From the NCBI GenBank assembly GCA_001244265.2, contig CDLV01000006.1:1798001-1862000 (forward strand): 64,000 nucleotides of DNA, read 5' to 3'. The notes below the pieces were generated by a model. The model was given only the letters and a program-made list of their open reading frames with translations. It was not told where the DNA came from and searched no databases. Below, piece by piece: positions 33,174-36,676 of this stretch (within the stretch, counting starts at the first letter, position 1; each line of letters begins with the position of its first letter). Origin of the DNA: Microbotryum violaceum (Eukaryota). A program made the translations under genes and the position numbers.

Positions 33174-36100
33174 TTAATGACCCCTCTCTTTGAGCAACGA
33201 CAGCGCCGAGTTGGATCGCAAGACGGCCATGTTCTGTTCGGAGAAGCACGTTGATAGGAGGCGTCAGCGGCGCGGCTCGTGAGTCAACTTGGGCGTACGA
33301 GTCGAAACTTACCTGGAGGGACACCTTGCCCTTGGTCTTCTTGAGCGACAACTCGAGGTTCTTTCCCGACATGACTTTCTCAAAATGCTCGCGCGCCTTA
33401 GAGAATTGCCCCATCGAGTCGTACAGGCGACCTAGCTCGTAGTCTGTCGACAAAAGGAAGCGTCAGCGCCTGAAAGTACTATAAGCTTTTACGTGACACG
33501 TAATCATTCACTCACGGGTGAACCAAACGAGGTGGTGGTCGTGTTGCAGATCGCGCCCGTGCTTGAGGACGTTGTTGAACGAGATGAGCGCCTGCTCGTC
33601 CGCCTCCTTGACCGGGATCTGCGACTTTCTAGGTCGCGGATCGACATGCGGTTGAGGGTGCGCGATGAAGTGCAGGACAATACCGCGGAGCAGGTGCGCA
33701 AGGCAGTAGTCTATGGCGCCACGAAAGAGGATCAGCAATCCCTTCCGTTCGAGCTCTCAGAACGGTAAAGTGGACTGACCATCCCAGAATTCGTCACCAT
33801 TCCCGTATCGACTAGGGTCCTTGACTTGATGAAGGTCGGACAACACGGTGGAAATCTGGTCAAGGTGGACCTCGAAGAGGTTGAAGCTAGCATATCGCAT
33901 CTAGGGTCAGTCTCGCGTTGACGGACGCGCTTTCGCTCCTCGACACGAGCGGGCACTCACCGAGGCGAAAGACCCAAGCAGTTTAGGACGTAGGCCAGCT
34001 CAATACCAGGCAAGCAAAGGTGATTGCCTTGTGCGACATACTTGCGAGAACGACGAGCAACGAATTTCTGGAAGATCGTTTGGGTAGCGCGTTAGGTGAG
34101 GGGCAACCACGCAAATAGTTACCCTCGCCGCTAGACTGACCTCGAGAGGGATACTTTTGCCGGCGATGCGTTGCATCAGGTCAGGGACGCCTTTCATGAT
34201 CTTGTTCGCCTTGGCAATATCTTGCCCTTGCTCGTAAATCGACGTCGCCTACGACATAGGGGAATTTTGATGCGTCAGTGTCGGCACCACCACGAGGCAA
34301 TCAGACGGAGGCTCACCTTGGCATAGGCGTAGATAGCCTTGGACCAGTTCGATTCCTTGTCGAGGATGTTGAAGCATTCGTAACCCTTGATCCAGTCTCC
34401 ACTCGCGAGAGAGACAAGTCCAAGGTCCCAGTAGCAAATGTGACCGAGTTGAATGTATTCTCGCTGCGCCGCAATGGCCAAGTGAAAAGATTTGACCGCC
34501 GACTCGAGCTGCGTCTCGGTGGAATGAAGCCGACCGGCGAAGTAGAGGAAGAAGATGCCGTTCGGGTACCGGTCAAGGTTGTAGTGGAGAATGTGCGCTG
34601 CAGTCGGGACGTCAACGCCACCCACGGGAAGATAGTTGGCAATGACCAAGTGGTGCATCAGCAGGACCATGTCGCAAATGGGGCGACGGATTCCTTCTTG
34701 CTCAGGCGGCATCCCCGGTTCGGCCGTGCGAGGCTTCCATCGACCACCGAGCATGAGCGTCTTGAGCGCATACTCGCGGTCGCCCGTGAAGCCGAACACG
34801 GTCATGATCTTGAGCACGGCACTCGGCAAGAGCGAGAGGATAAGCGAGATCAAACCGTTGCCGAGGTAGACGCCGGATCGGAAATCCTCGTCGATGGAAT
34901 CGTCGTGGCCGCCAGCGGACTGGTCCATCGCCTCCACGTAGGCCGCCAGGGTTCGGTAGATGGCATAGGCGTTACGCATATTCAGGGCTTCCTTGAGGAC
35001 TGTGGTTTGTGATCACGAAAGAGTGGTGTCAACAGCTAGCATAACGGGAGACGCAAAGACTGCCTAGCTTACATGCGACAAAGTCGCCCGAGTAGATGAT
35101 ACCCAGGACGGCCTGTCGTTGAAAAACGGCACGCAATCATTAGGATCGATAACAACGACACGGGGAGTTCAAAGCAACAATACTCCCCTTCAACAACGTG
35201 CATTCACTGAAGACAAGCTCCGCGTGTCGCTGTACAGGCGTCATGGCCTTGATGGAGCTGACCGAGGTCGAGCCCTTGGCGAGGCGGCCGACATTCTCGA
35301 ACAGGCCGTGGTCCTTCTTGCGCAGCAGTTGGGCAATAAGGATCGAATCCTGCAGTCCGAGAAGCAATGCAATATCTGGTCAGGGAGCGAAAGAGGGTGT
35401 TCAGGAAGTAAGGCAACTCGGACCGAGAGCCCCAGACATACCTTGCAGCAAGAGATCGCAGCTTCAAGATCTTCAGGCTCAAAGGTGGCGAGAGACTTGA
35501 TCGATTGAATGAGCGCATATCCGACGGCGTAGTACAAGCGGTTGTCGCATGCGGCCAAGCAAATGTCCTGTGTTTGTGTAGACGGTCAGCAAGCAAATCT
35601 TAAGCTAGCTCGGGCTCGAAGCAGCGCGAAGCCCCAAAACCCACCTCTGCTTCGATCATGCGGCTGGACATGAACAGATGCATCGCTTTCCAAACGGTTG
35701 CGATATCCTGAAAGCCCAACATACCGACATCAGTACCTCGAATAGAATGCGAGGCTACACGCGATCATGTGGGGTGACTTAACCTCCTTGACATCTGACT
35801 CCTGGAGCGCAACATCGTCCGAAGTCAACGAGGAAAGCGGTTTGCCGAGCTTGGGGCGCAACTTGACGTCCTTCTCCATCGCTTCGGTCGCTAGCTTGGC
35901 CGCACGACTCATGTTCTGTCGTTTGGCCGGATTCTTGGCCTCACTGGAATTGACCTTGTTGCGTTGACTCGGGCCTCGCTTCTGTGGTTCAGCGGCTCGC
36001 TTTGGCGGTGCATCCGAATCGTCAGAGTCGTACGAGTTGGTTCCGGCGGCAACAGGAGCGCCTTTGACCGGGTGAGCGTACTCGTCGTCGGTCGAAACCT

Positions 36101-36676
36101 CCTCTGCATATTCGTCGTCATTCTCGTTGCCAGCCTTGCTGGTACTACGCTTGATATTGTTGGACTTGGCCGAGCCGAAGGTGGTCTTGCCTCGGAGAGC
36201 GGCGCCTCGCTTGGGTGCATCATCCTCACTTTCCTCCGAGTTGTGTTCGGATGCGCTGTCTTCTTCTTCGGACTCAGAGGTCACGGCGGGTTTGGGCAAA
36301 CGGGCGGCACCGGCACCGCCGTTGGACTTGTTCGAGAGGGAGCGCGACAGGGAGGCCCCACCCCCGCTTCGATCGTTCTCGAGCGACAACAGGCGGGAGT
36401 TGGGCGAGGCCGAACCGGCGAAAGAAGCTGTCAGGTCCGAAGCCTTGACCTTGCCTCCTCTTGAAGATGCACTGTGGGACGTGGACCGTACAACATGGTA
36501 CGGGGCAAGCGCAAAACTTAGCTGCCGGCTGCACGAGCTCGGGTGGGGAAAACGGAGATGGAGCCTGCTGCTCACCTGAGGAGAGAAGCCGAGGTTGCCG
36601 ACGAGGTGTCGGACGTACCTCCGACCGAAGACGACGACGATACACTGCGACTCTTGTTGCGTTTGAGCAATGGCAT
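33174..36676 (-). CDS. IML2: Iml2/TTC39-family TPR protein
   Basis: HAELVFSECTLLK|AVLGIIYSGD, DEDFRSGVYLGNGLISLILSLLPSAVLKIMTVFGFTGDRE, YPNGIFFLYFAGR, ESNWSKAIYAY, RIAGKSIPLE|KFVARRSRKY; disordered N-terminus. One intron has a non-canonical donor. Confidence 0.9.

What the first reader, a model, noticed from the sequence alone, without database searches (positions are those of the whole stretch)
35113..35190. IML2 intron that must be spliced has no canonical donor: GGGAGT sits in a 7-bp hairpin
Seen (minus strand): ...TTG AAG|GGGAGTATTGTTGCTTTGAACTCCCCG...CCTAAT...GACAG|GCC GTC CTG. The protein needs ECTLLK joined to AVLGIIYSGD, and retention hits a stop at 35140. The junction donor (35187) reads GGGAGT, one base off the GTGAGT common in this window. 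GGGGAGT pairs perfectly with ACTCCCC 13 nt downstream, including the odd +2 G, which argues somewhat against a simple base-call error. The nearest in-frame GT is a weak GTTGCT (35178) in the hairpin loop, which would add GSI. The rest of the gene looks intact. Inference: a rare GG-AG intron, or a structure-presented weak donor that may be regulatory.
Basis: partly seen in the sequence, partly recalled or inferred. Interest (0 to 1): 0.7.

Follow-up and report, generated by a model that had tools for sequence, protein, structure and literature searches.

The report
Real GG-AG intron in fungal IML2
One intron of a conserved anther-smut fungus gene begins with GG instead of the near-universal GT, yet transcript assemblies show it cut out exactly, so it is a rare but known kind of non-canonical intron, and the public gene model is wrong by three amino acids.

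Summary
On the minus strand the 75-nt intron 35187-35113 of the IML2/TTC39 homologue starts GGGAGT and ends CAG. It is in frame with a TAA at 35142-35140, and its donor sits in a perfect 7-bp stem.

Contigs of two runs from two studies (X17, 0 differences in the 8 pieces listed; X20, 37 differences listed) lack all 10 introns laid. They skip exactly these 75 nt. None of the four equivalent cut registers gives GT, whereas the other nine joints are GT..AG.

Contigs of two other runs that keep the introns (X15, X18) show no difference at 35186, so the G is not a base-call error.

The public protein, 100% identical over the exon queried, carries an extra GSI from a forced GTTGCT donor. No other homologue checked has an insert there.

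The intron position is old, and every relative seen has GT, so GG is derived.

Best reading: a spliceosomal GG-AG intron, tolerated because every other donor position fits the consensus. A predicted clamp of 16 paired nucleotides across the donor is only suggestive (z about -2.2). This is a new member of a known rare class, of moderate interest.

The parts
33174..36676 (-). Coding region of the IML2/TTC39-family gene. The exon queried is 100% identical to the public protein that its source names MVLG_04622 of Microbotryum lychnidis-dioicae.
   Evidence: Pfam PF10300 Iml2-TPR_39, E 5.2e-48, on exon 34317-34997. P0001 is 100% identical over that exon. tblastn of P0001 runs from 36676 to 33177.
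35188..35349 (-). Exon ending ...ECTLLK, upstream of the odd intron.
   Evidence: Contig pieces 35187-35348 in X17 and X20, with registers set.
35113..35187 (-). The 75-nt GG-AG intron, phase 0, removed in the transcript contigs.
   Evidence: Joint 35111>35187 skips 75 nt with 3 ambiguous letters in X17 (depth 160.7) and X20 (depth 201.8). No GT-AG register exists within +/-3.
35182..35187 (-). Donor hexamer GGGAGT, preceded by AAG. The +2 G is at 35186.
   Evidence: No other letter is listed at 35186 in X15 or X18.
35139..35143 (-). Candidate branch site CTAAT, with its branch A 27 nt before the 3' end of the intron. It overlaps the TAA that stops the retained frame (35140-35142).
   Evidence: Read from the sequence. 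The consensus CTRAY is recalled, not tested.
35113..35114 (-). Acceptor AG.
35182..35188 (-). 5' arm of the 7-bp hairpin, covering donor positions -1 to +6.
   Evidence: pair probabilities 0.95-1.0 in the isolated RNA.
35162..35168 (-). 3' arm of the hairpin (ACTCCCC).
35189..35197 (-). Last exon bases (-10 to -2), predicted to pair with the intron's 3' end.
   Evidence: 9 bp including one G-U, probabilities 0.78-0.98.
35115..35123 (-). Intron bases just before the AG, predicted to pair with the exon end.
35173..35178 (-). In-frame GTTGCT in the hairpin loop. The public model uses it as donor, which adds GSI. It is not seen in the contigs laid.
   Evidence: P0001 reads TLLKGSIAVLG. The joints do not include it.
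35073..35112 (-). 40-nt mini-exon (AVLGIIYSGDFVA plus 1 nt) between the GG-AG intron and the next GT-AG intron.
   Evidence: joints. Record letters 355-393 (X17) and 1196-1234 (X20) fill it exactly.

Best explanation
This is an ordinary U2-type spliceosomal intron whose donor dinucleotide is GG instead of GT, a GG-AG intron. It is removed as the main, and probably constitutive, form of the mRNA.

A T-to-G change at donor position +2 arose in the Microbotryum lineage, in an old intron that has GT in every relative seen.

Inferred: the change is tolerated because every other donor position matches the consensus (AAG|G.GAGT), so U1 can still pair at 7 of 8 positions. A CTAAT branch site and a CAG acceptor are also in place.

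The public gene model inserts GSI only because its pipeline had to find a GT.

Shown: the DNA letter, the exact mRNA junction, the age of the intron position, and GT in relatives. Inferred: spliceosomal chemistry, U1 pairing, and that the RNA-source strains carry the same G.
For. X17 (1997-letter record; 0 other letters in the 8 pieces listed) and X20 (2992-letter record; 37 differences listed), from two studies, lack all 10 introns laid.
- Nine joints read GT..AG on the minus strand.
- The tenth skips exactly 75 nt. Its possible ends are GG..GG, GG..AG, GG..CA or AG..AC.
- Record arithmetic shows no extra letters at this joint.
- No X17 or X20 contig covers the intron's interior. The bin depths of 25.3 and 31.7 equal the spliced contigs' share.

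One search, the DNA letter. X15 and X18 contigs run through the intron with no other letter listed in those pieces. X18 differs elsewhere (34021 T>C), so it is not the same sequence as the window.

The exon join taken from these contigs translates without a stop and equals P0001 minus GSI. Of the 37 X20 differences, 33 are synonymous and 4 are not. Of the 37, 31 lie downstream of this intron, so that frame has been under selection.

Of the 77 of 120 homologues that a motif search caught, 76 read ...LLK directly followed by AVLG-like residues. Only P0001 has an insert.

The same phase-0 intron is present in 9 of 24 metagenome loci (6 distinct sequences, plus L017, which differs from L008 by one letter). 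All have GT donors.

In 8 of 11 short read-through ORFs a V (codon GTN) follows TLLK.

GG-AG introns are a known rare class.
Against: - The DNA of the strains behind X17 and X20 was not seen at the intron. For X17 the G is inferred from the absence of any difference in the listed pieces. For X20 it is open.
- X15 may be the same strain as the window, so it excludes a base-call error rather than a private mutation.
- Contigs cannot give isoform ratios. A minor GTTGCT or retained form would be invisible.
- No lariat or branch point was seen.
- The junction has a 3-letter direct repeat and lies at the foot of a stable predicted structure. These are the features that favour reverse-transcriptase template switching (passages of PMC4176328).
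- In human reporter and RNA-seq work GG ranks next to last among non-canonical donors (abstract and discussion of PMC6280755).
Confidence: 0.8

Rival explanations
1. Polymorphism. The spliced transcripts come from strains with an ordinary GT donor, and the GG allele of the window is itself poorly spliced or unspliced, that is a hypomorphic or dying allele.
For: No X17 or X20 contig covers the intron, so their own donor letter is unseen. X20 differs from the window at 37 listed exon sites.
Against: The X17 pieces listed show 0 other letters, while other runs already differ at a few sites. G was seen in the window, in X15 and in X18, and X18 is not identical to the window. The rest of the gene is intact.
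Confidence: 0.08
2. Structure-assisted splicing. The GG donor is usable only because a predicted clamp pairs 16 consecutive nucleotides across the donor. The first 9 pair with the intron bases just before the AG and the next 7 with an intronic 7-mer, which places the two splice sites side by side. Alternatively the clamp acts as a switch that tunes splicing.
For: Fold of 13 exon nt plus the intron: -25 kcal/mol, z -2.18 with 3 of 200 shuffles as good, and z -2.30 with 18 of 1000. Pair probabilities are 0.78-1.0. It is the most negative z of the 11 introns of the gene folded the same way; the others run from -1.52 to +1.23. The 6 orthologous introns give -1.48 to +1.50. The +2 G is itself one of the stem's pairs.
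Against: With 11 introns compared, p of about 0.015 does not survive correction. There is no covariation data. A paired donor should hinder U1. Four ascomycetes show a preference for weak folding around donors (abstract of PMC4574748). The stem was noticed after the fact.
Confidence: 0.12
3. Reverse-transcriptase template switching. The mRNA keeps the 75 nt and the deletion arises during cDNA synthesis across the structured region.
For: A 3-letter repeat at the joint ('both' = 3) and a stable structure. Both are named as favouring such artefacts (PMC4176328 passages).
Against: The deleted form is the only form assembled, at depth 160.7 and 201.8, in two studies. It restores exactly the junction found in all other homologues checked, at an intron position shared with 9 loci. 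Canonical joints of the same gene also show 'both' of 1-3. Retention would truncate a protein whose downstream frame is under purifying selection.
Confidence: 0.03
4. Base-call or assembly error. The true donor is GTGAGT.
For: GGGAGT is one letter from the common donor.
Against: No other letter is listed at 35186 in contigs of two other runs from other studies (X15, X18).
Confidence: 0.02
5. The public model is right. The GTTGCT donor at 35178 is the main one and the protein carries GSI.
For: P0001 is annotated so. It is the nearest in-frame GT.
Against: Neither transcript contig uses it. No other homologue checked has an insert. The genome paper's methods passage describes an automatic EVM/PASA pipeline (PMC4469406). 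That such pipelines accept only canonical ends is recalled, not read there.
Confidence: 0.03

Closest known systems
GG-AG introns in curated or RNA-supported catalogues. Ganoderma lingzhi 'golden' annotation: 20 of about 92,107 introns, 0.0217% (PMC11590231, Table 1 passage). Human CPSF3 testis-specific GG-AG site (PMC4176328 passage). 222 GG among 341,386 Ensembl introns with AG (PMC6280755 discussion).
   Same: G at +1, G at +2, AG acceptor and a U2-like context, in a basidiomycete in the first case. Rare.
   Different: Here it is the only form assembled for a conserved coding intron, not a weak or tissue-specific alternative. It is tied to a dated substitution in an old intron. FlyBase release 6.04 lists none (PMC4528330).
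GC-AG introns, the commonest non-canonical class.
   Same: One change at donor +2, with the rest of the donor close to consensus. That GC donors show this compensation is recalled, not tested here.
   Different: C at +2 can form a C.A wobble with U1 (PMC6280755 discussion). G at +2 cannot, and it ranks far lower in use there.
Introns whose internal pairing brings splice signals together, such as yeast RPS17B/RP51B (PMC2536676, only the start of the abstract seen in the search listing).
   Same: Predicted base pairing shortens the distance between the two ends of the intron.
   Different: In the yeast case the pairing lies downstream of the donor and near the branch site. Here the donor itself and the last exon bases are paired, and nothing has been tested.
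Spliceosomal twin introns (stwintrons) of fungi. Recalled; no paper read.
   Same: They explain apparently missing donors in fungal genes.
   Different: An internal GT-AG intron would have to begin at +2, but +2/+3 read GG. No nested canonical solution exists in any of the four registers.

Membership tests
U2-type spliceosomal intron | GT (or GC) at the 5' end | tested here: not met
   GG in every register that fits the mRNA joint.
U2-type spliceosomal intron | AG at the 3' end | tested here: met
   CAG at 35115-35113. Met in one of the four equivalent registers.
U2-type spliceosomal intron | Donor positions other than +2 fit MAG|GTRAGT | tested here: met
   AAG|G.GAGT. The consensus is recalled. 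Three of the gene's other donors read GTGAG.
U2-type spliceosomal intron | Branch-site motif CTRAY some 10-40 nt before the acceptor | tested here: met
   CTAAT at 35143-35139, with its A 27 nt from the end. By sequence only.
U2-type spliceosomal intron | Size like its neighbours and exact removal from mRNA | tested here: met
   75 nt against 68-92 nt for the other nine introns laid. Removed in X17 and X20 contigs.
U2-type spliceosomal intron | Lariat formation, dependence on U1/U2/U6 | not testable with these tools
   No raw reads or lariat data. No genome is held, so the organism's U1 could not be read. The window has no Rfam match.
GG-AG non-canonical intron, RNA-supported | GG in the DNA and the joint in RNA of the same strain | tested here: inconclusive
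   GG was seen in the window, X15 and X18. The joint was seen in X17 and X20. No single run showed both.
U12-type (minor) intron | 5' end RTATCCTT and a TCCTTRAY branch site close to the 3' end (motifs recalled) | tested here: not met
   The 5' end is GGGAGT. TCCTAAT resembles the branch motif only loosely and lies 27 nt from the end.
IRE1-cut (HAC1/XBP1-type) intron | Both cuts in 7-nt loops of twin stem-loops with CNG|NNGN (motif recalled) | tested here: not met
   The cuts lie at AAG|GGGA and CAG|GCCG. In the predicted fold the 5' cut is inside a helix junction, not in a loop.
Stwintron | An internal GT-AG intron whose removal rebuilds a GT donor | tested here: not met
   +2/+3 are GG. No register allows it.
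Iml2 / TTC39 protein family (host gene) | Match to Pfam PF10300 above the curated cut-off | tested here: met
   164.4 bits against a cut-off of 22.2, E 5.2e-48.

The most novel reading that the evidence does not exclude
The GG donor works only because the pre-mRNA folds into a clamp. Sixteen consecutive nucleotides across the exon-intron border pair with the intron's last bases before the AG (9 bp) and with an intronic 7-mer (7 bp, including the odd +2 G). The two splice sites then lie side by side at a helix junction. The structure would compensate for, or gate, a donor that the spliceosome would otherwise ignore. That would be a natural case of RNA structure rescuing a +2 donor mutation in a fungus.
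Probability: 0.12. Interest if true: 0.7.

Novelty: new member of a known kind. Interest (0 to 1): 0.4.

Why it matters
It is a clean natural example of a GG donor serving as the main 5' splice site of a conserved coding intron. The ancestral state is known (GT in every relative seen), and the rest of the donor is perfect.

It shows how canonical-only annotation pipelines hide such introns. The public protein of this gene carries three residues (GSI) that the transcripts do not encode.

It also offers a small, testable system (75 nt, one odd base, two predicted helices) for asking whether RNA structure can offset a +2 donor defect.

It does not open a new class, because GG-AG introns are already catalogued at about 0.02% in another basidiomycete.

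Tried and rejected
**Steps that gave nothing**
- No whole genome is held for the window. The organism's U1 snRNA and other non-GT introns of the genome therefore could not be examined.
I could not see whether other public models of this gene carry the right junction.
- The look-up of sequencing runs: no RNA holder listed on record. X17, X18 and X20 are '?' or guessed. X17 and X20 are treated as transcript-derived only because their contigs lack all introns. X18's contigs run through introns and are treated as DNA-like.
- Parts of the stretch that X18 does not cover carry no meaning.
- Earlier findings of this scan: nothing by place, by words or by sequence.
- Rfam at gathering threshold: 0 matches in the window.
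- The search with the read-through ORF found 11 short ORFs, none from a close relative. The donor letter of sister species stays unknown.
- The metagenome scan gave 24 loci. The best segment identity is at most 72%, so none is close either.

**Slips that I corrected**
- Wrong frame (redone).
- Term syntax (replaced).

**Readings considered and rejected**
- Base-call error.
- U12-type intron.
- IRE1-type or tRNA-endonuclease-type excision.
- Stwintron.
- An antisense canonical intron: the + strand ends read CT..CC.
- A retrocopy in DNA: X15 holds only the intron-bearing form.
- Template switching is kept as a low-odds rival.

**Literature searches**
- 'MVLG_04622' gave 0 papers.
- 'Microbotryum' + splice + RNA-seq + intron gave 19 papers. 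I opened one of them, the genome paper, by passages, and the passages shown say nothing of non-canonical splice sites.
- PMC7072748 (fungi-wide survey) has 0 occurrences of 'GG-AG' in its main text. Its supplementary tables were not opened and may list GG-AG counts per species.

Full report
**What is there**

On the minus strand the window reads TTG AAG (35193-35188), GGGAGT (35187-35182), 62 more bases including CCTAATG, then GACAG ending at 35113, followed by GCC GTC CTG from 35112.
- The stretch 35187-35113 is 75 nt long and in frame.
- If retained, it is stopped by TAA at 35142-35140.
- GGGGAGT (35188-35182) is the exact complement of ACTCCCC (35168-35162), across a 13-nt loop.
- The nearest in-frame GT is GTTGCT at 35178.

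**The gene**

The large exon 34317-34997 matches Pfam PF10300 (Iml2/TTC39) at E 5.2e-48. It is 100% identical to P0001, an 859-residue protein that its source names MVLG_04622 of Microbotryum lychnidis-dioicae. The next hits are other Microbotryomycetes. The coding region runs from 36676 to 33174 on the minus strand. Of its introns, 11 were examined here; the other ten all begin with GT.

**Is the G real?**

No whole genome is held, so I used public runs. The look-up of sequencing runs listed 24 runs, 20 of which hold the stretch or part of it, from 8 studies. I laid four of them.
- X15 (DNA?, another study) gave one contig over 33150-35622 with 0 other letters.
- X18 gave a contig over 34932-35209 that runs through this intron and the next, also with 0 other letters. 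X18 differs from the window elsewhere (T>C at 34021).

A base-call error is therefore excluded, and the G is not confined to one sequence. X15 may still be the same strain as the window.

**Is the intron removed, and where?**

X17 (record of 1997 letters, depth 160.7; 0 other letters in the 8 pieces listed) and X20 (2992 letters, depth 201.8; 37 differences listed) come from two studies. Each has one contig that lacks all 10 introns of the stretch laid.
- Nine joints are CT..AC on the + strand, which is GT..AG on the gene's strand.
- The tenth goes from 35111 to 35187 and skips 75 nt, with three letters that fit either side.
- The four equivalent cuts read GG..GG, GG..AG, GG..CA and AG..AC on the gene's strand. 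None gives GT (checked again over +/-3).
- The table marks 'between: not known' for this joint. The record letters 355-393 (X17) and 1196-1234 (X20) are exactly the 39 letters of the mini-exon between the neighbouring pieces, so nothing is inserted.
- The bin depths over the intron (25.3 and 31.7) equal what the spliced contig alone contributes.

Contigs drop rare variants, so a minor GTTGCT or retained isoform cannot be excluded.

**Consequence for the protein**

Joining the exons as the contigs do gives an open frame whose translation equals P0001 with GSI removed.
- P0001 reads ...ECTLLKGSIAVLG..., so the public model used the GTTGCT donor.
- The five other homologues fetched read ...ECTLLKAVLG....
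- A motif search caught 77 of the 120 proteins held. Of these, 76 have no insert and only P0001 has one. Of the 43 the motif missed, 12 were printed and also show no insert.
- The genome paper's methods passage describes an automatic EVM/PASA pipeline (PMC4469406, passages). That such pipelines reject non-canonical junctions is my recollection.

**Is the downstream frame in use?**

Of the 37 differences between X20 and the window, 33 are synonymous and 33 sit at third codon positions. Of the 37, 31 lie downstream of the intron, including all four replacements. The frame behind the intron has been under purifying selection. That fits a spliced, translated gene, not one truncated at the TAA.

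**History**

A scan of metagenome contigs gave 24 related loci, none close.
- In 9 of them a phase-0 intron sits at exactly this place, between K and A. That is 6 distinct sequences, plus L017, which differs from L008 by one letter. L001 equals L002 and L012 equals L014.
- All begin with GT: GTGAGA, GTGCGT, GTGCGC, GTAAGC, GTAACG.
- Most of the other loci have no intron there.
- A protein search with the read-through ORF found 11 short ORFs. In 8 a V (codon GTN) follows TLLK, in 2 there is no intron at this place, and 1 has an intron elsewhere.
- Some of these ORFs probably come from the same contigs as the loci, so the two counts are not independent.

The intron position is old, GT is the ancestral donor, and GG is derived somewhere in the Microbotryum lineage. 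The M. intermedium model (P0002) has the plain K|A junction. This hints at a canonical donor there, but its DNA could not be fetched.

**How it most likely works**

Apart from +2, the donor is a perfect AAG|G.GAGT. A CTAAT lies 27 nt before a CAG acceptor, and the length equals that of its neighbours. I therefore read it as a U2-type intron that survives a +2 T-to-G change. The spliceosomal steps are inferred, since no lariat or snRNA data were available.

GG donors are known but rare:
- 20 of about 92,107 introns in the curated Ganoderma lingzhi set (PMC11590231, Table 1 passage).
- None in FlyBase release 6.04 (PMC4528330, Table 3 passage).
- A testis-specific one in human CPSF3 (PMC4176328, passage).
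- In human cells the usage ranking is GC > TT > AT > GA > GG > CT, with non-canonical donors mostly in weakly used junctions (PMC6280755, abstract and first part of the discussion).

A GG donor that is the only assembled form of a conserved coding intron is thus at the unusual end of a known class.

**The hairpin**

Folding 13 exon bases plus the intron gives -25 kcal/mol. The z-score is -2.18 with 3 of 200 shuffles as good, and -2.30 with 18 of 1000 in my own control.

Sixteen consecutive bases, 35197-35182, are paired:
- the first nine with 35123-35115, just before the acceptor AG (9 bp, one G-U);
- the next seven with 35168-35162.

Pair probabilities are 0.78-1.0. This would place the two splice sites side by side.

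Folded the same way, the gene's other ten introns give z from -1.52 to +1.23, and six orthologous introns give -1.48 to +1.50. This intron is the most structured of the set, but after allowing for 11 comparisons the excess is not significant.

A perfect 7-mer hairpin with a loop of 3-30 occurs at 0.21% of window positions, and it was noticed after the fact.

A paired donor would be expected to hinder U1. Four ascomycetes show a preference for weak folding around donors (PMC4574748, abstract). I rate a functional role at about 0.12.

**Rivals**

- Template switching by reverse transcriptase deserves mention, because the joint has a 3-letter repeat and sits at the foot of a stable structure. These are the features named for such artefacts (PMC4176328, passages). 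Against it: the deleted form is the only one assembled, at high depth, in two studies. It restores the junction of every other homologue checked, at an old intron position. Canonical joints of the same gene show repeats of 1-3 letters too.
- Polymorphism, meaning that the RNA strains carry GT, cannot be excluded for X20. It is unlikely for X17, given 0 other letters in its listed pieces.
- U12-type, IRE1-type and stwintron readings fail on their defining motifs. These motifs are recalled, not read in a paper here.

**Verdict**

It is a new member of a known rare kind. The public model is wrong by three residues. The structural clamp is an open, testable extra.

What stays open for lack of data is listed under the next steps: DNA and RNA from one strain, isoform ratios, the intron in sister species, the branch point, and the organism's U1.

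Noticed in passing
window 35173-35187 (minus); protein P0001: The public protein model of this gene carries GSI between TLLK and AVLG. The transcript contigs do not encode it, and no other homologue checked has it. This is an annotation error caused by the non-GT donor.
   Followed up: yes
P0002 against window 33711-33779 (minus): The M. intermedium model has eight extra residues (GHLPRWFS) exactly where the window has a GT-AG intron (…DEFWD|DYCLAH…). This is probably a mis-set splice site in that model.
   Followed up: no
L001 792-850 (identical in L002): In this relative's orthologous intron the donor GGUGAGAU is predicted to pair with AUCUCGCC next to the acceptor (z -1.48, 25 of 300 shuffles as good). 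It is a second case of end-to-end pairing at this intron position, here with a normal GT donor.
   Followed up: partly
window 35728, inside intron 35708-35783 (minus): A low-depth X17 contig (3.4 of 21.9) lacks 3 letters here. X17 also has some cover inside this first intron, so an unspliced or variant form exists in that run.
   Followed up: no
window 34021: T>C (His to Arg in the protein) is shared by X18 and X20 but not by the window, X15 or X17. It is a segregating or lineage-marking replacement.
   Followed up: partly
P0121, P0123, P0131: Some relatives lack the intron at K|A altogether (continuous TLLKAVLGIIYSGDFVAC). One has an intron a few codons upstream instead, so there has been intron loss or shift at this site within the group.
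   Followed up: no
window 35784-36676 (minus): About 270 residues rich in S, D and E precede the Iml2 domain. Similar long low-complexity N-termini are present in the other Microbotryomycetes homologues fetched.
   Followed up: no
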